Positions 5,925 through 23,611 of a stretch of 64,000 nucleotides of DNA are shown here, one piece after another. The notes below the pieces were generated by a model that was not told where the DNA came from, made no database searches, and saw only the letters and a list, made by a program, of their open reading frames with translations. The DNA comes from Patescibacteria group bacterium (lineage in GTDB: Bacteria; Patescibacteriota; Patescibacteriia; UBA2591; UBA6264): the NCBI GenBank assembly GCA_016784145.1, contig JADHVF010000001.1, positions 159,339 through 223,338 on the forward strand. Reading direction: 5' to 3'. A program made the position numbers and the translations under genes. The stretch's first letter is position 1; the number at the start of each line of letters is the position of its first letter.

Positions 5925-6461
5925 TTAATTACAAATATCTTTCGTTAGAATGATATGTTTCTCTCCTATAATATGTTTCAAGCTGTCTATTATTAAATCA
6001 TTGTTTGCTTGACCATGCAAGGAATTACAAGCATCTTTAATCACAAAAGTTTCCAAATTACTATCAAATAAATCCATGGCTGTTTTTATCACACAAACAT
6101 CTGTATAAACCCCACAAAGATAAACTTGCTTGATTTTGTTATTGAAAATAAAATCCTTTAACTTTTCGTTTAAAATAATATAAGCACTATGCTCTATCTC
6201 TGTATTGTCTGTTGATTGTAATTCTAAAAATAATTGCCGTTCTTTAGTATTTTGAAACTTATCACAGCCCAGTTGTTTTTCAAATAAAGAATCCTTATTA
6301 TTAATGAATTTTGTTAAAACTATCTTGCCTTTAAAAGATTTTTTTAATTTCAAAACATTTGACAATATTGCTTCTGACTCAATAGCCCTAAATCCCTCCT
6401 GCATATCAATAATTAAAAGTAACTTATTCATTTTATTCTTATTTTTTAAATTTTTTATCAA
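5925..6461 (-). CDS. isochorismatase-family cysteine hydrolase (nicotinamidase-like)
   Basis: LLIIDMQEGF N-terminal motif and a catalytic Cys in LCGVYTDVCV. Confidence 0.7.
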   Translation of the reverse strand: MIKNLKNKNKMNKLLLIIDMQEGFRAIESEAILSNVLKLKKSFKGKIVLTKFINNKDSLFEKQLGCDKFQNTKERQLFLELQSTDNTEIEHSAYIILNEKLKDFIFNNKIKQVYLCGVYTDVCVIKTAMDLFDSNLETFVIKDACNSLHGQANNDLIIDSLKHIIGEKHIILTKDICN

Positions 6462-6687
6462 TATAAATAATTCTCCACCAATATTTTCCTGCCAAACAAC
6501 CTCCTAATATTCCCAAAACAAAAAGAATTACTGAACCAATGTCATGGATTATTTGCCATTGCGACCAATTTAATCCACTTACAAGATATTTAAGCACTGG
6601 GATTTCTATTAAGGCATGAATTATCGTGCTAATAATAATTCCTAGCACAACCCAAAGAAAAATATATACAAACCTTTTTATCTTCAT
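6439..6687 (-). CDS. small integral membrane protein (2 TM)
   Basis: Hydrophobic ORF overlapping the downstream gene by 23 nt. Confidence 0.4.
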   Translation of the reverse strand: MKIKRFVYIFLWVVLGIIISTIIHALIEIPVLKYLVSGLNWSQWQIIHDIGSVILFVLGILGGCLAGKYWWRIIYIDKKFKK

Positions 6688-6726
6688 GCTTTCATTGTAT
6701 CATATTTTTAAATATTATTACATATT

Positions 6727-6762
6727 TATATTCTTGACAAAAACACCAAATCTGCTATTTTA
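6727..6762 (+). promoter_or_regulatory. promoter module copy 1: tatattcttgacaaaaacaccaaatctg (TTGACA -35 plus conserved downstream 15-mer)
   Basis: Identical 28-mer repeated at 7239..7266. Positioned about 60-85 nt upstream of the GTG start of ORF 6817. Confidence 0.5.
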
Positions 6763-6816
6763 TAAGCATTAGAAGGGATAATCCCTTTATTCATTAACAA
6801 TCAAAAGGAGACGATT

Positions 6817-7134
6817 GTGTTTATACACGAGAATAAACCCATGGACATAGAACAGATGAAAAAGTTGATAGAACAACTTCAAGCATATCTGCCATTTTAT
6901 GGAAAAATCTTGTCATGCAAACAAGATGCGCCAGATTCTCCATTAGGGAGAATTGATAAATTGTGGTTGATAAAAAGTCATCTAAAGATTACTATTGTTC
7001 AAGAAAGAATCAATAAAAAGGGACGAATATATGACAAACCGCCCTTAAGATTAAAAATACCAATAGACGAAATACATGATATTTTTTCTTTTAAGACAAA
7101 AGATGGTCGGAATATTATTCTTGAACAGGAGTAA
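6817..7134 (+). CDS. hypothetical protein (GTG start, AAGGAG RBS)
   Basis: RBS 6 nt upstream of GTG. Has its own terminator 7164..7198. Confidence 0.45.
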   Translation: MFIHENKPMDIEQMKKLIEQLQAYLPFYGKILSCKQDAPDSPLGRIDKLWLIKSHLKITIVQERINKKGRIYDKPPLRLKIPIDEIHDIFSFKTKDGRNIILEQE

Positions 7135-7198: not shown

Positions 7199-7238
7199 AA
7201 TATTATTGATCTTCTATTTATTTTTTAATACTATTTTT

Positions 7239-7274
7239 TATATTCTTGACAAAAACACCAAATCTGATATGCTA
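7239..7274 (+). promoter_or_regulatory. promoter module copy 2 (identical 28-mer with TTGACA)
   Basis: See copy 1. Upstream of ORF 7347. Confidence 0.5.
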
Positions 7275-7909: not shown

Positions 7910-8057
7910 TTTTCTTTAATTAAAAATTTGCTATCGTTAAAACTTAAAATGACATAAATATAATAAAATTTGGCTATCATTTTGTTAATAACTAATTATT
8001 GCCATGAACCAGAATAAATTCGGTTCACGGCATAAATCAGAACTTCGTTCTGATTTA

Positions 8058-8132
8058 TGGCTCCGGAGGGCGGGTTCGAACCGCCGACACGCTGGTTAAC
8101 AGCCAGCTGCTCTGCCACTGAGCTACTCCGGA
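8058..8132 (-). tRNA. tRNA-Asn (anticodon GTT), CCA encoded
   Basis: Cloverleaf found in the reverse complement: acceptor TCCGGAG/CTCCGGA, anticodon stem-loop GCTGG-CTGTTAA-CCAGC, T-arm GGTTCGAACCC. Followed on the minus strand by two hairpins (8034..8057 and 8001..8031). Confidence 0.85.
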
Positions 8133-13439: not shown

Positions 13440-13530
13440 TTCTGCCTCCTTTTTTTAAATTATTTCTTACTGTGACAAGGATAGCGCAAATCTCCCTTTC
13501 TGTCAATTCCCTATATCTACTATTTAACCT

Positions 13531-13552
13531 ACTGAGAGGCCTTGCCTCTCAG
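13531..13552. repeat. GC-rich palindromic element, variant ctgagaggc-ctt-gcctctcag
   Basis: 21-nt hairpin. Member of the family also seen at 15176..15215, 23282..23341 and 23540..23560. Confidence 0.5.
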
Positions 13553-13582
13553 TAAATTTTGGATAAATTTTATTTAGGGAAT

Positions 13583-14302
13583 TCAGGAGTCAGGGCCCCC
13601 AAAAGAAAGATAGAATTTGCGTTTTTCTTTAGAAAATTTTTCAATAGCATAACGCAACATCATACGTGGCATAATATGTGCCTGTTTTTTTAAAAATTCC
13701 TCTAATGTCTTTTTATCTCGTTTGCCAACCTCTCTAAGCATCCAACCACTAGCTTTATGAATTAAATCATGTTTGTCTTTTAAAAATATCTGAGCCAGTT
13801 TTAAAGTATCATTAAATTGATTGTTTTTAATAAATTGAAAAGTGGAAACCATGGCTATGCGTCGTTCCCACAAATTTTTTGATTTAGCCAGCTTATAAAG
13901 AATACTTTTATCTTTTTTCCCCATCAGCCAAACTCCTAATATATTTGAGGCTGTAATATCAACCAAGTCCCAGTTATTCACATTTCTGGCATTTTTCAAA
14001 TAAAAATTAACTATTTGTTTTTGTCGCCCAACATCAGCCTGCTTAAATTGATTAGTTAAAATCACTAAACAGGTTAATCTTTGTTCATGAATTTTGCTTT
14101 TTAATAATATTTGTAAATCTTTTAATTTTAAATTTGTGTATTTTTGGGCTACTTTTCTTTGTTCTGGCACAGTAATGCCCAGAAAAATATCCCCTGCACC
14201 ATATTGGCCTGGCCCTGTTTTAAAAAAACGAGACAAAATGATTGCTTTGTCTGGATTTTTTAATACTTTTAATTCTTTTTTTAAGGATATTAAATTACCC
14301 AT
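13583..14302 (-). CDS. DNA alkylation repair protein (AlkD/AlkC-like HEAT-repeat glycosylase)
   Basis: NNWDLVD motif and helical-repeat composition typical of pfam DNA_alkylation. Confidence 0.6.
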   Translation of the reverse strand: MGNLISLKKELKVLKNPDKAIILSRFFKTGPGQYGAGDIFLGITVPEQRKVAQKYTNLKLKDLQILLKSKIHEQRLTCLVILTNQFKQADVGRQKQIVNFYLKNARNVNNWDLVDITASNILGVWLMGKKDKSILYKLAKSKNLWERRIAMVSTFQFIKNNQFNDTLKLAQIFLKDKHDLIHKASGWMLREVGKRDKKTLEEFLKKQAHIMPRMMLRYAIEKFSKEKRKFYLSFGGPDS

Positions 14303-15060
14303 AAAAAGAAAATTATACTAATTATTATTCTATAAATGCCAAATAAAATAAAATTATTATTTTGAACATATTTTATAAAAAACTTAATAGTAATTAAAGC
14401 CACTAGAAAAGCAACAACAAAACCAATTCCCAGAGCAATAAAATTTTCTCCTGAAAATGACAGGCCTGATTTTAATAAATCATAACCAGTGGCTGCCAAC
14501 ATAGTCGGAATTGCCAGCAAAAAAGAAAATTCTACAATGGTTTTGCGACTCAGTCCTAAAATTAGTCCGCCAACAATAGTTGCTCCGGCCCTAGAAACCC
14601 CTGGAATCATGGCAATTGATTGGAAAATACCAATTAAAAAACATTTTGAAAAAGGTATTTTGCTGATTGCCTGAGTATCTTTTTCTTTTTCTTTGTGTAA
14701 TAAATCAAAAACAATTAAAAAAATACCGCCCAAAAATAAAGCGCCAATTATTATCTGATAACTTTCTAATAAATAATTTTTTACGATCTTGTAAGCCAAA
14801 AGACCCAAAACAGCTGTTGGCAAAAAAGCAATAACAATTCTTTTCAACACCTCGTACTTTATTAAAAACTTTTTCCAATAAAGCCAAACCACTGCCAAAA
14901 TTGCGCCTAATTGAATTGAAATCTCAAAAGTTTTTACAAAGTCAGTTTGAGATAATCCCAGCAGTTTTGAAGAAAGAATTAAGTGAGCGGTTGAAGAAAT
15001 CGGCAAAAACTCGCTCAAGCCCTCTACTATTCCTAAAATTAAACTATGTATATATCCCAT
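14290..15060 (-). CDS. uppP: undecaprenyl-diphosphate phosphatase
   Basis: GLSEFLPISSTAHL motif of the BacA/UppP family. Multiple TM helices. Confidence 0.9.
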   Translation of the reverse strand: MGYIHSLILGIVEGLSEFLPISSTAHLILSSKLLGLSQTDFVKTFEISIQLGAILAVVWLYWKKFLIKYEVLKRIVIAFLPTAVLGLLAYKIVKNYLLESYQIIIGALFLGGIFLIVFDLLHKEKEKDTQAISKIPFSKCFLIGIFQSIAMIPGVSRAGATIVGGLILGLSRKTIVEFSFLLAIPTMLAATGYDLLKSGLSFSGENFIALGIGFVVAFLVALITIKFFIKYVQNNNFILFGIYRIIISIIFFLWVI

Positions 15061-15175
15061 TTATCTTGTTTTGCTATATTTACTATTTATATGCTTGTCT
15101 ATACATGGATCAGGCACAATGGTCAGTCCTATTTAAGTGAGCTCTGATAACCCTATTAACTTAGTGGAAACCCCT

Positions 15176-15215
15176 ACTTAGAGGCCTTGCCCTACTTAGG
15201 GGCCTTGCCCCTAAG
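15176..15215. repeat. tandem pair of GC-rich palindromic elements (cttagaggccttgccctac / cttaggggc-ctt-gcccctaag)
   Basis: Read directly. The loop ctt is the reverse complement of the aag loop in the 23.3-kb copies, so the element occurs in both orientations. Confidence 0.55.
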
Positions 15216-15480
15216 TAAAATAAAAAATTGTGTAATATTTATATTAAGAATAACCAAAAAAAATAATTTTAACAACCATTTTTTTATTTTCCAAAATCCA
15301 ATTTTTTAGTAAAAATTACAAATATTGTAACAAATTATATTTTTACTCGTCATATTATAATGAGAGGGATAAAAAAAATAATAAATATTAAAAATGACTG
15401 TAATAAAAATAACTAATAAAAAAAGCAAGAAAAAAGTAGATTCCGCCTTAGAAAAATGGGCTATATTTTTATTATTTTTA

Positions 15481-15530
15481 ATGCAAAAAGAAAATAAAAA
15501 ATAAAATAAATATAATAAACAAACAAAAAA
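15481..15530. repeat. direct repeat DR-L (atgcaaaaagaaaataaaaaataaaataaatataataaacaaacaaaaaa), followed by hairpin terminator 15531..15560
   Basis: 49/49 identity with DR-R at 16966..17014. Confidence 0.7.
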
Positions 15531-15804
15531 AGCACTTATTTATTAAGTGTTTTTTTAATATCCTTGTGCTAACTCTAAGACCTCGTAAAATAAAGCTCTT
15601 CGTGATAGCTCAATCTGGCAGTACCTTTTAGTTGAAATGCGTGATAATTTGAACTTAAAACTTTATTAATCTATTAATAAATATCGTGTTTGCCAATAGA
15701 ATAAAATCTAACTGCATTTTTCTTTTTATCTACAAAATCAAAAATAATTCTATATTCATAATTTATAAAAAATGCTAGAAATAGTTACTCACAGTTTAAA
15801 TAAT

Positions 15805-15833
15805 TTGACTTATATTTATTAATTGGCTATAAT
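15805..15833 (+). promoter_or_regulatory. consensus sigma70 promoter TTGACT-17-TATAAT for the fic gene
   Basis: Read directly, about 30 nt upstream of ATG 15864. No SD sequence. Confidence 0.55.
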
Positions 15834-15863
15834 TGGGCATAGTTAATATAACCAATTAATCTT

Positions 15864-16961
15864 ATGATAAAAAAGCAAAAAAATACCACTAAAAAGGGTC
15901 TGGGTCTGGATAAATTCGATAAACGGCTTGAACACGTCCCAGCCAGCATCATCTCGAAAATAGGACAGATCGATGAATTAAAAGGAAGATGGATTGCAGG
16001 GGCAAAATTAAGTCCTCAAGTTTTAGGTCGTCTCAAACGGTCTGTTTTGATTACATCTACTGGTGCTTCTACTCGTATTGAAGGTGCAAAACTATCTGAT
16101 AAGGATGTTGAGAAAATGATGAGAGGTATTACTATCCAGAAATTTACTGACCGAGATAAACAGGAAGTTCAAGGTTATTATGAACTTTTAGAAAATGTTT
16201 TTAATTCTTGGAAAATACTTAAACTTAACGAAGGCACTATAAAGCATTTCCACGGTGAATTGCTCAAGTATGTTGATAAAGACCAAAGACATCGAGGTGA
16301 TTATAAAAAGCAGGAAAATAAAGTCCACATGGTAAATAAAGCTGGCGAGTCTGTGGGTGTTCTTTTTGATACCACCGCCGCCTATCTTACTCCCAAAGAA
16401 ATGCAGGAATTAATTGAGTGGACTAACAATGCTTTGACCGAGAAAAAATATCACTCACTTCTTATTGTCGCTAATCTCTTAGTAGAGTTTTTAAAGATTC
16501 ATCCATTCCAAGATGGTAATGGCCGGTTTTCTCGTGTTCTGACAAATCTATTGCTTCTTAAAGAGGGCTACGAATACATGCCCTATGTATCTCATGAGAA
16601 ATTGGTTGAGGATAACAAGCCAGAATACTATATTGCTTTACGTAAAAGTCAAAAAACAATGGGTTCAAAAAAAGAGGATATTACTCCATGGCTTAAATTC
16701 TTTTTCACTATGTTAATTCAACAAGCAGAAATGGCAGAAGAGCTTTTGTCAAAAGAAAACATAGAAAAACTTTTGTCTGAAAAACAGCTGGCTGTTTGGC
16801 AGTATTTACAGGAAGTAGAAGAAGTCAGCACTGGAAAGCTTGTTAAAAAAACAAAAATTTCTCGAGCTACTGTAAAACAAGCACTCGATAGATTATTACA
16901 GTTTAAGAAAATCGAACGCATTGGTCTTGGTAGAAGCGCGAGATACCGAAAACTAAAATAA
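15864..16961 (+). CDS. fic: Fic-family protein (AMPylator) with C-terminal winged-helix domain
   Basis: Canonical Fic motif HPFQDGNGRFSR. Confidence 0.9.
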   Translation: MIKKQKNTTKKGLGLDKFDKRLEHVPASIISKIGQIDELKGRWIAGAKLSPQVLGRLKRSVLITSTGASTRIEGAKLSDKDVEKMMRGITIQKFTDRDKQEVQGYYELLENVFNSWKILKLNEGTIKHFHGELLKYVDKDQRHRGDYKKQENKVHMVNKAGESVGVLFDTTAAYLTPKEMQELIEWTNNALTEKKYHSLLIVANLLVEFLKIHPFQDGNGRFSRVLTNLLLLKEGYEYMPYVSHEKLVEDNKPEYYIALRKSQKTMGSKKEDITPWLKFFFTMLIQQAEMAEELLSKENIEKLLSEKQLAVWQYLQEVEEVSTGKLVKKTKISRATVKQALDRLLQFKKIERIGLGRSARYRKLK

Positions 16962-16965
16962 ATAT

Positions 16966-17014
16966 ATGCAAAAAGAAAATAAAAAATAAAATAAATATAA
17001 TAAACAAACAAAAA
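16966..17014. repeat. direct repeat DR-R, followed by hairpin terminator gacggaag-taat-cttccgtc plus T6 (17015..17045)
   Basis: Identical to DR-L. Both are followed by a hairpin and then tttttaatat. Confidence 0.7.
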
Positions 17015-17057
17015 AGACGGAAGTAATCTTCCGTCTTTTTTAATATACAATAAATAC

Positions 17058-17567
17058 TTATTTCTCTTTTTCGTAAAAATTAGGATCAAGTCTTAGCCTT
17101 GAATCAATTTTGGATGGATCTTTCTCAGTCTCCTGTTGCTTGAGCCACATATAAAATTCTTCCTTATTTCTAATGAAATTATTATGTTCTCCTGGATTAA
17201 GCTTTCTCCCTAATTTTTGCTCTACATGCCACATTTCCGAACCTCTTTGAGAAGGAAGGTCTCTAATTTCCTTAGAAATATCAATTTTTCTAGAAGGAAG
17301 TAGCGGTTCTTTTTTGCCACTAATAAACGCACGAAGCTTTTTTAATAAACCATCTGTTTTTTTGATATCTTCTTCTACTAGTTTTTTGCTTTCTTCTGAA
17401 GTCTCAAAATCATCTTTTATTTCTTCTTCTTTATTTTCTTCTAGTTTTTCTTCCGTTCGACCATGCTCAGGGTCTTTGCCTTTATTTTCTTCCAATACTT
17501 CTTCATTTGAATTCTTTTCAAAATTCATAATAATTAAAGTTAATTTATTATGTATATATAATAACAC
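17058..17567 (-). CDS. acidic hypothetical protein (GTG start; probable real start at internal MNFEKN)
   Basis: ORF only. Glu/Lys-rich. Confidence 0.35.
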   Translation of the reverse strand: MLLYIHNKLTLIIMNFEKNSNEEVLEENKGKDPEHGRTEEKLEENKEEEIKDDFETSEESKKLVEEDIKKTDGLLKKLRAFISGKKEPLLPSRKIDISKEIRDLPSQRGSEMWHVEQKLGRKLNPGEHNNFIRNKEEFYMWLKQQETEKDPSKIDSRLRLDPNFYEKEK

Positions 17568-17664
17568 ATATAAAACAAAAAGTCAAACAGAGATTGATTT
17601 ATGAAGCTTGAGATAACAACCCCACTATCGCTACAAAAAGCTTTGGCAAAGTAAAAGTGAAACT

Positions 17665-17752
17665 TGGCGGAGAGGAAGGGATTCGAACCCTTGATACCTT
17701 GCGGTATACTGCCTTTCCAAGGCAGCGCAATCGGCCTCTATGCGACCTCTCC
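17665..17752 (-). tRNA. tRNA-Ser (anticodon GGA), long variable arm, CCA encoded
   Basis: Reverse complement GGAGAGGTCGCATAGAGGCC...CTGCC-TTGGAAA-GGCAG...long variable arm...GGGTTCGAATCCCTTCCTCTCCGCCA. Confidence 0.85.
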
Positions 17753-17808
17753 ATGATTTAATTCATAATAGCAAATATTTAAGTGATAAGCAATATTTAA
17801 AATATATA

Positions 17809-23218: not shown

Positions 23219-23281
23219 AACATATCCTCATTTTTATTTTATTTACTCTGTTTACTCTATTGTTTGCTCTATTTTATTTTA

Positions 23282-23341
23282 CTTAGGGGCAAGGCCCCTA
23301 AGTGATTGATTTGTACTCTACTTAGGGGCAAGGCCGCTAAG
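23282..23341. repeat. two GC-rich palindromic elements (cttaggggc-aag-gcccctaag and cttaggggcaaggccgctaag)
   Basis: Read directly. Left boundary of the minisatellite. Confidence 0.6.
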
Positions 23342-23349
23342 TGAGATTC

Positions 23350-23531
23350 TTGATTACTAATTATTGATTATTGATTACTAATTATTGATTACTGATTATT
23401 GATTACTGATTATTGATTATTGATTCTTGATTATTGATTACTAATTATTGATTATTGATTATTGATTATTGATTACTAATTATTGATTATTGATTACTGA
23501 TTATTGATTATTGATTACTGATTATTGATTA
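23350..23531. repeat. heptanucleotide minisatellite, 26 contiguous units of TTGATTA / CTAATTA / CTGATTA (one TTGATTC)
   Basis: Parsed unit by unit: T A T T A T C T C T T' T T A T T T T A T T C T T C T. Noncoding, with TAA in every variant A unit. Lies between rnj and ORF 23612..23890. Confidence 0.8.
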
Positions 23532-23539
23532 CTACTCTA

Positions 23540-23560
23540 CTTAGGGGCAAGGCCCCTAAG
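23540..23560. repeat. GC-rich palindromic element cttaggggc-aag-gcccctaag (right boundary of minisatellite)
   Basis: Identical to the copy at 23282..23302. Confidence 0.6.
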
Positions 23561-23611
23561 TGAGGTAAAAGCCACTAAGGGATGTAATTCAGGAGAATTT
23601 TAAGAGTAGGA

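What the first reader, a model, noticed from the sequence alone, without database searches (positions are those of the whole stretch)
15404..17045. Fic (AMPylator) gene lies between two 49-bp perfect direct repeats, each followed by its own terminator hairpin
The sequence atgcaaaaagaaaataaaaaataaaataaatataataaacaaacaaaaaa occurs at 15481..15530 and 16966..17014 with 49/49 identity. In each copy the repeat is followed by a different hairpin (gcactta/taagtgt; gacggaag/cttccgtc) and then the same tttttaatat. The two copies lie on either side of a single gene, which has its own consensus TTGACT-17-TATAAT promoter and encodes a canonical HPFxDGNGR Fic protein. Repeats this long and this exact in a small AT-rich genome suggest recent duplication, or insertion and excision of a Fic cassette (att-like sites), or a reusable terminator module. 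The left copy would terminate a transcript from the otherwise gene-free 15.06-15.48 kb region, which hints at an unannotated small RNA or ORF there. Fic proteins are frequent toxin or effector cargo.
Basis: partly seen in the sequence, partly recalled or inferred. Interest (0 to 1): 0.62.

Follow-up and report, generated by a model that had tools for sequence, protein, structure and literature searches.

The report
Mobile Fic defence gene between duplicated flanks
A perfect 50-base direct repeat brackets a 1.4-kb piece of foreign DNA carrying a self-regulated Fic (SoFic-like) gene in a Patescibacteria genome. [quoted passage not shown]

Summary
An exact 50-nt direct repeat (15481-15530 and 16966-17015) occurs only twice in the 64-kb window. 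Each copy is followed by a different hairpin. The pair brackets a canonical Fic gene with its own promoter.

The Fic gene is a self-contained cassette: promoter, operator, class II Fic with the N-terminal STRIEG inhibitory motif, and a C-terminal winged helix. Its best PADLOC match is the SoFic anti-phage model.

It is 81-86% identical at the DNA level to cassettes in unrelated gene contexts in other Patescibacteria and on one phage-like contig. The adjacent housekeeping gene uppP has no relative above 65%.

In 5 of 28 related fic loci the cassette lies between locus-specific 34-55-nt direct repeats, against 1 of 425 control genes (p = 3.6e-6). Those repeats are duplicated 3' ends of host genes (comF/NUDIX, prmC, rubrerythrin, tRNA-Gly).

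Best reading: insertion with long target duplication, joined at microhomologies, with no recombinase in the insert. It is not an att site or a reusable terminator module.

No empty site could be found, because the organism has no close relative in the databases. A cassette-borne origin of the repeat is therefore not excluded.

The parts
15481..15530 (.). Direct repeat, copy 1 (50 nt, 76% A). Its first 24 nt are the last 7 codons plus the stop of the 36-codon ORF.
16966..17015 (.). Direct repeat, copy 2 (50/50 identical). It starts 4 nt after the fic stop codon. On the minus strand it supplies the U-rich tract after hairpin 2.
15531..16965 (+). Repeat-bounded segment, the inferred insert. It is 1435 nt and 33.2% G+C, against 30.0% for the window.
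15526..15556 (.). Hairpin 1 (core 15532-15550 plus an A7/T7 extension). It is weak and looks like a bidirectional terminator. It is inferred to have arrived with the insert.
15677..15784 (-). Possible C-terminal remnant of a RelE/ParE-type toxin gene (..YRIIFDFVDKKKNAVRFYSIGKHDIY*). It is cut off where homology to other fic units begins (15789). The evidence is weak.
   Evidence: pairwise E = 0.005 to E. coli RelE; no Pfam, NCBIfam or PDB support
15805..15833 (+). fic promoter, TTGACT-17-TATAAT. DNA homology with fic units of other genomes begins between 15789 and 15805, at or a few bases before the -35 hexamer.
15820..15858 (+). Putative operator. It has a direct half-site TAATTGGCTA (15820-15829) and palindrome arms TAATTGGGCA (15830-15839) and TAACCAATTA (15849-15858) around TAGTTAATA. 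It overlaps the -10 hexamer.
15864..16961 (+). fic gene, 365 aa. It is a class II Fic with STRIEG at residues 69-74, HPFQDGNGRFSR at residues 213-224, and a C-terminal winged helix-turn-helix.
17010..17041 (.). Hairpin 2 (core 17016-17035 plus an A6/T6 extension). It is a strong bidirectional terminator shared by fic (+) and ORF156 (-).
15394..15504 (+). A 36-codon ORF called by a public annotation. It has no homologs, so whether it is a real gene is uncertain.
17058..17528 (-). ORF156, an orphan ORF. The only match in 5.8 billion proteins is itself.
17665..17752 (-). tRNA-Ser(GGA). The 2.6-kb interval between it and uppP is the variable islet that holds the fic insert.
15177..15226 (.). REP-like double hairpin (CTTAGGGGCCTTGCCCCTAAG). 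It belongs to a dispersed family and is not part of the fic insert.
14290..15060 (-). uppP (BacA), the housekeeping gene on the left flank.

Best explanation
The two 50-nt copies mark the ends of a recently acquired 1435-nt DNA fragment (15531-16965).

The fragment's cargo is one complete transcription unit. It consists of a sigma-70-type promoter, an operator overlapping the -10 hexamer, and a class II (SoFic-like) Fic AMP-transferase. The C-terminal winged helix of this protein most likely binds that operator, so the gene would repress itself. By family resemblance it is a candidate abortive-infection or anti-phage gene.

The fragment entered a variable islet between tRNA-Ser(GGA) and uppP. 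It did so by illegitimate, microhomology-guided joining, not by a dedicated recombinase:
- The right end joined the chromosome at a 12-nt match, ATGCAAAAAGAA.
- The left end joined 50 nt further downstream, in an A-run.
- The 50 target bases between the two joints were therefore copied onto both sides.

This is 'insertion with long target duplication', for example by two template switches or by joints made on sister chromosomes.

In these compact genomes such a duplication lets both neighbours keep their 3' ends and terminators. Here hairpin 2 keeps its A/U tracts. That would explain why duplicated versions are the ones that survive.

The perfect 50-nt repeat would also allow RecA-type precise loss of the cassette.

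What is shown: the repeat, the gene anatomy, horizontal mobility of the cassette, the excess of flanking repeats in the family, and the host-gene origin of those repeats at other loci. What is inferred: the target origin of this particular repeat, the joining mechanism, autoregulation, and the defence function.
For: (1) The repeat is exact, unique and sharply bounded.

(2) The cassette is mobile.
- The fic unit is 81-86% identical in DNA, from the -35 hexamer to the stop codon, to units that sit in quite different contexts: between a cation ATPase and an NTP-transferase, between a comF-like gene and an HTH/R-M cluster, next to an HTH gene, and between rubrerythrin and tRNA-Ala.
- One homolog lies on a phage-like contig with tail and amidase genes.
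- The best non-self Fic homolog is 89% identical. For the neighbouring uppP the best is 65%, and ORF156 has none.
- fic G+C is 36.1%, against 30.6 +/- 2.8% for the window's ORFs.

(3) There is a family-wide signature. Direct repeats of at least 30 nt and at least 90% identity lie within 500 nt on both sides of fic in 5 of 28 loci. A sixth case, L049, has its left flank cut by the contig start. The same is true of 1 of 425 other genes in the same loci (Fisher p = 3.6e-6).

(4) At the other loci the repeats are host sequence.
- L036: 45 nt. The left copy encodes the end of comF and the right copy encodes the end of the convergent NUDIX gene.
- L049: at least 55 nt inside the 3' end of prmC.
- L029: the 3' end of rubrerythrin plus 34 nt.
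- L050: the 3' 44 nt of an intact tRNA-Gly.

(5) The repeat sequences differ at every locus, and the insert has no integrase or transposase.

(6) Microhomology: 'atatATGCAAAAAGAA' directly after the fic stop codon is shared with L034 and L035, where it is the start of the next ORF. The window repeat starts exactly at ATGC. L036 shares TGTAA at its right junction.

(7) Published precedent: R-M genes inserted with target duplications of 46-47 bp and longer that overlap gene 3' ends, mostly in naturally competent species (PMC2853133).

(8) Islet: tRNA-Ser(GGA) lies 87 nt from uppP in L118 and 3.7 kb from it in L061, against 2.6 kb here.
Against: No empty site was found for this locus. All contigs that carry the flanking genes are about 99.9%-identical strains with fic and both repeat copies. 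No closer relative than 65% uppP identity exists in the databases searched.

The first 12 nt of the repeat are linked to fic in other genomes. Positions 13-50 show borderline similarity to the DNA that follows fic in L035 (p = 0.018 by shuffling; 0.058 against A-rich windows of the same genome). The whole repeat could therefore be cassette-borne.

The 36-codon ORF whose end lies in copy 1 has no homolog. Unlike the other loci, then, the repeat cannot be shown to be part of a real host gene.

The insert carries 262 nt of non-fic DNA whose origin is unknown.

Only 64 kb of the genome could be searched for further copies.

The excess of flanking repeats may be a general mark of recently inserted accessory genes in these genomes, not a property of fic.
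Confidence: 0.5

Rival explanations
1. The 50-mer belongs to the cassette, not to the target. It would be the decayed 5' end of the PglX-like methyltransferase gene that follows fic in L035-type donors. The fragment would have arrived with a 50-nt terminal redundancy, for example as slightly more than one unit cut from a circular or tandemly amplified [fic, 50-mer, hairpin 1, relE remnant] form. Hairpin 1 would then be fic's own terminator.
For: After the fic stop codon, 16 of 16 nt are identical to L034 and 15 of 16 to L035. The rest of the repeat is borderline similar to L035 (p = 0.018 and 0.058). The L035 downstream gene is a PglX/type IIG-like methyltransferase. This reading would give the cassette a complete promoter-ORF-terminator layout. 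Repeat-flanked R-M genes are reported to amplify.
Against: Ungapped identity beyond the first 12 nt is about what composition alone predicts. At every other repeat-bracketed fic locus the repeat is clearly host sequence. A 1.5-kb circle has no replication function. The reading still needs an earlier event to create the first repeat.
Confidence: 0.17
2. The repeats are attL and attR of a site-specific integration by an integrase acting in trans, as in tRNA-linked islands. The cassette would be a mobilisable remnant that can excise.
For: The insert lies in an islet 650 nt from tRNA-Ser(GGA). One related locus, L050, has the classical layout with the tRNA 3' half repeated on both sides of fic. 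Identity blocks of 40-60 nt are normal for such att sites.
Against: There is no integrase in the insert or the adjacent ORFs. The 50-mer is not tRNA sequence. Each fic locus has a different repeat made of local host genes, whereas an element-borne attP would be conserved along with the element. The homology between cassettes ends at the -35 hexamer and the stop codon.
Confidence: 0.08
3. The repeat is a local duplication, a gene-conversion patch, or re-use of an A-rich terminator leader, and has nothing to do with how fic arrived.
For: Both copies sit directly upstream of a hairpin followed by T-run and AATAT. The repeat is low-complexity and A-rich. On the minus strand it acts as the U-tract of both hairpins.
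Against: There are only two copies in 64 kb, and no partial copies. The two hairpins are unrelated in sequence although the repeat is 50/50 identical, which points to recombination and not divergence. The flanks show no residual similarity. Related fic loci show the same bracketing far more often than control genes.
Confidence: 0.08
4. The repeat is an assembly artefact or a chance match.
For: The repeat length is close to common assembler k-mer sizes. Logan k=31 contigs break inside it.
Against: Independent assemblies from at least five samples span both copies inside contigs of up to 17 kb. No matches are expected by chance. Repeats at other loci carry mismatches, so they cannot be k-mer overlaps.
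Confidence: 0.01

Closest known systems
Insertion with long target duplication of restriction-modification genes (Nobusato et al. 2000, Gene 259:99, cited from the reference list seen; Furuta, Abe and Kobayashi 2010, PMC2853133)
   Same: A small gene unit without its own recombinase is bracketed by direct repeats longer than 30 bp. Published examples are 46-47 bp in H. influenzae and T. thermophilus. The repeats differ from site to site, are unique in the genome and often overlap the 3' end of a neighbouring gene or a tRNA. The excess over control genes was shown statistically. Most hosts are naturally competent species.
   Different: The cargo is a Fic AMP-transferase, not a nuclease/methylase pair, so the published idea that DNA breakage by the R-M system drives the event does not apply. 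The hosts are Patescibacteria. For this locus the defining comparison with an empty site is missing.
SoFic, a single-gene anti-phage defence system (class II Fic; PADLOC model PDLC03963; PMC12249575)
   Same: It has the same architecture: the N-terminal inhibitory motif (S/T)xxxE(G/N), the Fic core HxFx(D/E)GNGRxxR and a C-terminal domain. The PADLOC SoFic model matches at E = 1.5e-41 over residues 57-360. The motifs are present in all 120 best homologs.
   Different: It is only a distant relative. NCBIfam's SoFic equivalog scores 43.8 bits against a cut-off of 550. There is no downstream AS1-like small antitoxin gene, only a 7-codon mini-ORF inside the repeat. Defence activity is untested.
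tRNA-targeted integrative islands with attL/attR repeats
   Same: The position is next to a tRNA gene in a variable interval, and direct repeats of tens of bases bracket the foreign DNA.
   Different: There is no integrase, the repeat is not tRNA-derived, and it is not conserved among cassettes.
Integron gene cassettes
   Same: A single-gene unit of about 1 kb with a structured 3' end.
   Different: The cassette has its own promoter and operator. The two hairpins are ordinary A/T-flanked terminators with unrelated stems. No integron integrase or attC-type conserved core was seen. This was not examined in depth.
Minimal mobile elements of Neisseria (recalled from memory, not checked here)
   Same: Small accessory or defence genes are exchanged at fixed intergenic positions in naturally transformable bacteria without their own mobility genes.
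   Different: Those move by homologous recombination in conserved flanking genes and do not create flanking duplications.

Membership tests
Insertion with long target duplication (criteria of Furuta et al. 2010) | Direct repeat longer than 30 bp on both sides of the inserted gene | tested here: met
   50/50 nt at 15481-15530 and 16966-17015
Insertion with long target duplication (criteria of Furuta et al. 2010) | Insert shorter than 20 kb with no other mobility gene (integrase, transposase, prophage) | tested here: met
   The insert is 1435 nt. The only ORF with a family match is Fic. There are no terminal inverted repeats at the insert ends.
Insertion with long target duplication (criteria of Furuta et al. 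2010) | The repeat occurs once, at the same position, in a related genome that lacks the insert (empty site) | not testable with these tools
   No relative closer than 65% uppP identity exists. ORF156 and the 36-codon ORF have no homologs. All strain-level contigs carry the insert.
Insertion with long target duplication (criteria of Furuta et al. 2010) | The repeat sequence is otherwise unique in the genome | tested here: inconclusive
   It is unique within the 64-kb window, including both halves at up to 3 mismatches. The rest of the genome could not be read.
Insertion with long target duplication (criteria of Furuta et al. 2010) | Repeats are target-derived and differ between insertion sites | tested here: inconclusive
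   This is met at the related loci L029, L036, L049 and L050, where the repeats are 3' ends of host genes. For the window, 12 nt of the repeat are also linked to fic elsewhere, and the remainder is ambiguous.
Site-specific integrative element (att sites) | Tyrosine or serine recombinase gene inside or next to the element | tested here: not met
   None is present between uppP and tRNA-Ser.
Site-specific integrative element (att sites) | The same core sequence flanks related elements at different sites | tested here: not met
   Six fic loci have six unrelated repeat sequences.
DNA transposon / IS / MITE | Terminal inverted repeats and a short (2-15 bp) target duplication | tested here: not met
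   There are no inverted repeats at the insert ends, and the duplication is 50 nt.
Class II Fic (Fido) AMP-transferase | Active-site motif HxFx(D/E)GNGRxxR and a Pfam Fic domain above the cut-off | tested here: met
   HPFQDGNGRFSR at residues 213-224. PF02661 scores 57.2 bits against 24.
Class II Fic (Fido) AMP-transferase | Inhibitory motif (S/T)xxxE(G/N) on the same chain, N-terminal to the Fic core | tested here: met
   STRIEG at residues 69-74, present in all 120 best homologs. The class definition is quoted in PMC12249575.
Class II Fic (Fido) AMP-transferase | AMPylation activity | not testable with these tools
   Needs biochemistry.
SoFic anti-phage defence system | Match to the curated SoFic models | tested here: inconclusive
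   PADLOC SoFic matches at E = 1.5e-41, 141 bits. The NCBIfam SoFic equivalog scores only 43.8 bits against a cut-off of 550.
SoFic anti-phage defence system | Protection against phage | not testable with these tools
   Needs experiment. The genomic context is suggestive only: R-M, AbiEii and PglX-like neighbours at other loci.
FicT/FicA-type toxin-antitoxin pair (class I) | A separate small antitoxin gene that supplies the inhibitory helix | tested here: not met
   No adjacent co-oriented small ORF was found, and the inhibitory motif is in cis.

The most novel reading that the evidence does not exclude
Fic-winged-helix cassettes of Patescibacteria are a large family of selfish single-gene mobile elements. 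More than 7000 homologs were scored, at up to 89% identity across classes. In this reading they insert through a dedicated, ruler-like mechanism that duplicates about 35-55 bp of target. The mechanism would be promoted by the Fic protein itself or by an unrecognised host or phage factor. That would make them a recombinase-less class of mobile element, distinct from transposons, integrons and integrative islands.
Probability: 0.12. Interest if true: 0.8.

Novelty: new variant of a known kind. Interest (0 to 1): 0.5.

Why it matters
Insertion with long target duplication is a poorly understood route of gene mobility. It has been documented for restriction-modification genes and tentatively attributed to their DNA-cutting activity.

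Finding the same signature, with statistical support, around a Fic/SoFic-like gene that has no nuclease argues for a different cause. The route would then be a general way for small defence or addiction genes to enter genomes, possibly tied to natural transformation. The finding also extends this signature to Patescibacteria, whose mobile elements are little known.

It defines a compact, apparently self-repressing cassette in which operator and recognition helix co-vary, and that prediction can be tested directly.

It also gives a practical marker, locus-specific 35-55-nt flanking repeats, for dating and mapping recent gene gain in reduced genomes.

Tried and rejected
- **Empty site.**
  - Exact-protein look-ups of Fic, UppP and ORF156 returned only about 99.9%-identical strains with the insert.
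  - Homolog searches for ORF156 and the 36-codon ORF found nothing but the query itself.
  - UppP homologs stop at 65% identity.
  - A metagenome scan with UppP gave 80 loci at 56-66% identity with almost no synteny.
- **Contig breaks.** Logan contig breaks at 15223/15225 looked at first like a population variant. They are explained by a 32-nt exact copy of a REP-like hairpin elsewhere in the window.
- **Divergence at the tRNA.** ENA contigs L001 and L003 leave the window sequence inside the 3' end of tRNA-Ser. The tails are unrelated G+C-rich DNA and differ from each other, so I treat them as chimeric joins and not as alternative alleles.
- **RelE remnant.** Pfam, NCBIfam and PDB searches gave no support. 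Only a weak pairwise match to E. coli RelE was found.
- **Rfam.** Nothing matched in 14900-17800 except the tRNA and sub-threshold terminator-like hits.
- **Longer, degraded duplication.** Alignment of the flanks beyond the 50 nt was not significant.
- **TTTTTAATAT.** This 10-mer after both hairpins is a common motif, with 10 copies in the window.
- **Defined element ends.** Conserved terminal motifs or inverted repeats at the ends of the fic unit were not found. Homology simply stops at the -35 hexamer and at the stop codon.
- **Further fic contexts.** Look-ups of P0014 and P0116 added contexts but no empty site.
- **Literature.** No paper on Fic mobility in Patescibacteria or on PDB entry 8UQU turned up.
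Full report
**Observation.** The window carries an exact 50-nt direct repeat, ATGCAAAAAGAAAATAAAAAATAAAATAAATATAATAAACAAACAAAAAA, at 15481-15530 and 16966-17015.
- It has two copies and no more at up to 3 mismatches, with none expected in shuffles.
- Neither half occurs elsewhere in the window.
- It is the longest exact non-tandem repeat in the 64 kb.
- Identity stops abruptly on both sides. Alignments of the 150-170 nt outside the repeat are not better than shuffles.
- Copy 1 is followed by a weak hairpin, GCACTTA-TTTAT-TAAGTGT, at -12.2 kcal/mol including its A7/T7 extension. Copy 2 is followed by a strong one, GACGGAAG-TAAT-CTTCCGTC, at -18.6 kcal/mol.
- The shared TTTTTAATAT after both hairpins is a common 10-mer here, with 10 copies.
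- Independent assemblies from at least five samples contain both copies inside long contigs, so the structure is real.

**Anatomy of the interval.** From left to right the region contains:
- uppP (14290-15060, minus strand);
- a REP-like double hairpin (15177-15226) with copies at about 13.5 and 23.3-23.6 kb;
- a 36-codon ORF (15394-15504) whose last 24 nt lie in repeat copy 1 and which has no homolog;
- repeat copy 1 and hairpin 1;
- about 120 nt of unassigned sequence;
- a possible C-terminal remnant of a RelE/ParE-type toxin gene on the minus strand (15677-15784), supported only by a weak pairwise match;
- the fic promoter TTGACT-17-TATAAT (15805-15833);
- fic itself (15864-16961);
- 4 nt, then repeat copy 2 and hairpin 2;
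- the orphan ORF156 (17058-17528, minus strand);
- tRNA-Ser(GGA) (17665-17752, minus strand).

**The gene.** The product has a Pfam Fic domain and a DIP2311-like C-terminal winged helix. It carries the catalytic motif HPFQDGNGRFSR at residues 213-224 and the inhibitory motif STRIEG at residues 69-74. Both motifs are present in all 120 best homologs. This is the class II layout as defined in PMC12249575. The best PADLOC match is the SoFic defence model (E = 1.5e-41). NCBIfam's SoFic equivalog is far below its cut-off, so this is a distant SoFic-like protein. Related proteins occur in phage families (phrog_5978) and have a solved relative, 8uqu.

**A self-contained, probably autoregulated unit.** In about 30 related loci the only conserved non-coding DNA is roughly 75 nt, from the -35 hexamer to the start codon. 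At a fixed position, -34 from the ATG, it holds a palindrome of the form TAAT-xxx-ATA / TAGTTAATA / TAT-x'x'x'-ATTA, which overlaps the -10 hexamer. The arm cores change in a compensatory way between subfamilies: TGG/CCA, CTG/CAG, CTT/AAG and CTGT/ACAG. The presumed recognition helix of the winged helix changes with them: TVKQ goes with TGG, TVRQ with CTG and TVNQ with CTT, in 19 loci. These loci are phylogenetically non-independent. Even so, the pattern is what autorepression by the Fic protein's own DNA-binding domain predicts. This step is an inference.

**The cassette moves between genomes.** The unit is 81-86% identical in DNA to units that sit in quite different gene contexts: between a cation ATPase and an NTP-transferase, between a comF-like gene and an HTH/R-M cluster, next to an HTH gene, between rubrerythrin and tRNA-Ala, between comF and NUDIX, next to prmC, next to tRNA-Gly, and next to AbiEii. 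One copy lies on an IMG/VR contig with tail-protein and endolysin genes. The best non-self Fic homolog is 89% identical. The neighbouring housekeeping protein UppP has no relative above 65%, and ORF156 has none at all. fic is also richer in G+C than the genome's ORFs, 36.1% against 30.6 +/- 2.8%.

**Flanking repeats are a property of the family.** I searched 500 nt on each side of fic in 28 non-redundant loci for direct repeats of at least 30 nt and at least 90% identity. Five loci were positive, against one of 425 other genes of at least 200 aa in the same loci (Fisher p = 3.6e-6). Leaving out L038, whose repeat is a multi-copy element, gives 4 of 27 against 0 of 424 (p = 1e-5). L049 is a further case whose left copy is cut by the contig start. 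L034 has a 35-nt terminator hairpin repeated around fic plus two more genes.

The repeats differ in sequence at every locus and are made of host genes.
- **L036.** The 45-nt repeat (42/45 identical) encodes the last 13 codons of comF in its left copy and the last 8 codons of the convergent NUDIX gene in its right copy. The two genes must have overlapped by 21 nt before the insertion, and the duplication left both intact.
- **L049.** The repeat lies inside the 3' end of prmC.
- **L029 and L031.** The repeat is the 3' end of rubrerythrin plus 34 nt.
- **L050.** The repeat is the 3' 44 nt of an intact tRNA-Gly.

**Comparison with what is known.** This is the pattern that Kobayashi's group named "insertion with long target duplication" for R-M genes. 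Their cases have flanking repeats longer than 30 bp, with 46-47 bp examples overlapping gene 3' ends or tRNAs. The repeats are unique in the genome, no other mobility gene is present, and repeats are in excess relative to control genes. Most cases are in naturally competent species (PMC2853133).

**Application to the window.** By analogy, the 50-mer is most simply a duplicated piece of the target, and 15531-16965 is the insert.
- **Right junction.** The 16 nt after the fic stop codon, atatATGCAAAAAGAA, are identical in L034 and differ at one base in L035. There they start the next ORF, which in L035 is a PglX/type IIG-like methyltransferase. The window repeat begins exactly at ATGC. The right junction therefore lies in a 12-nt identity between the insert end and the target.
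- **Left junction.** This junction lies in the A-run before the hairpins. Copy 1 has A7 there and copy 2 has A6.
- **Parallel case.** L036 shows a comparable 5-nt overlap, TGTAA.
- **Mechanism (inferred).** Two microhomology-guided joints, with the second landing 50 nt behind the first, would produce the duplication. This could happen by template switching or by joints on sister chromosomes.
- **Selection.** Under this reading hairpin 2 with its A6/T6 tracts is the original bidirectional terminator of the site, and hairpin 1 came in with the insert. Selection against truncating neighbours in a compact genome would favour such events.
- **Variable flanks.** The cassettes carry different amounts of extra flank: 0, 21, 70, 90 and 262 nt on the left. 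This argues against an element with defined ends.
- **The islet.** The interval between tRNA-Ser(GGA) and uppP is 87 nt in L118, 3.7 kb in L061 and 2.6 kb here. This marks it as a variable islet.

**What remains open.** I could not find an empty site. Every contig that shares the flanking proteins is the same strain with the insert, and no closer relative exists in the collections searched. Positions 13-50 of the repeat show borderline similarity to the DNA after fic in L035 (p = 0.018 by shuffling; 0.058 against A-rich windows of this genome). The main rival is therefore that the whole repeat is cassette-borne, as a terminal redundancy from a circular or tandem intermediate. The att-site and terminator-module readings fit the data poorly, for the reasons given under the rival explanations. 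Only 64 kb of the genome could be checked for further copies.

**Verdict.**
"att-like sites" and "terminator module" are not.
- The account rests on a statistically supported, family-wide pattern that appears not to have been described for Fic genes or for Patescibacteria. Literature searches on Fic in Patescibacteria and on Fic genes flanked by direct repeats found nothing relevant.

Noticed in passing
window 15177-15226; also 13528-13556, 23272-23342 and 23537-23579: A dispersed REP-like hairpin family, CTTAGGGGC-CTT-GCCCCTAAG and variants. One 32-nt exact copy explains why Logan contigs from six samples end at 15223/15225.
   Followed up: partly
window 23345-23533: A tandem array of TGATTAT/TGATTAC units (period 14, 21 or 35; about 13 copies of the 14-mer; 88-90% matches). 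It is bracketed on both sides by the REP-like hairpins.
   Followed up: partly
window 15820-15858 and the same position in about 30 fic loci: The operator palindrome at -34 from the ATG has arm cores that co-vary between subfamilies (TGG/CCA, CTG/CAG, CTT/AAG, CTGT/ACAG). The winged-helix motif changes in step (TVKQ, TVRQ, TVNQ). This suggests that Fic represses its own promoter.
   Followed up: yes
L139 (IMG/VR UViG 3300027985_001430), fic at 5983-7068: A fic cassette 78% identical to the window's, with the usual promoter and operator, sits on a phage-like contig next to tail-protein and amidase/endolysin genes. This is a possible vehicle for transfer.
   Followed up: partly
L036 3081-3125 and 4278-4322: The duplicated 45 nt encode the end of comF in one copy and the end of the convergent NUDIX gene in the other. 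The two genes therefore overlapped by 21 nt before fic was inserted.
   Followed up: yes
L034 1314-1346 and L035 2531-2563: The first 33 nt or so of the ORF after fic are shared by two loci whose downstream genes otherwise differ: a cREC_REC protein in one and a PglX-like methyltransferase in the other. fic therefore travels with variable scraps of its previous neighbour.
   Followed up: partly
L038 4750-4799, 6077, 6190, 6809, 7977-8070, 8916: A multi-copy 42-93-nt repeat (GCGGGAACTGGTTTGAAACCAGTTTCTAATGTTTCCCATACA...) is scattered around fic and its neighbours in a Paceibacterota contig. Its nature is unknown.
   Followed up: no
window 6725-6758 and 7237-7270: A 34-nt direct repeat (33/34 identical) containing TTGACA lies upstream of two adjacent small ORFs. 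It looks like a duplicated promoter of tandem paralogs.
   Followed up: no
L001 11808-12224 and L003 4675-4765 (window 17670): Two ENA contigs leave the window sequence inside the 3' end of tRNA-Ser and continue into unrelated G+C-rich DNA. The two tails differ from each other. These are probably chimeric assembly joins.
   Followed up: partly
L118 5827-6001 and L061 2166-6001: In two distant relatives, HtpX and tRNA-Ser(GGA) precede uppP. The gap between the tRNA and uppP is 87 nt in one and 3.7 kb, holding three unrelated ORFs, in the other. The spot downstream of this tRNA seems to be a recurrent insertion site.
   Followed up: partly
L029 1118-1693: A 191-aa ORF with no Pfam match (it contains the motif IEGHHR) interrupts the upstream copy of the duplicated rubrerythrin/34-nt segment. 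This suggests a second, nested insertion next to fic.
   Followed up: no
window 17058-17528: ORF156, rich in E and K, has a good promoter-like site (TTGACT-17-TATTAT with TG, 17586-17558). It has no homolog in 5.8 billion proteins.
   Followed up: partly
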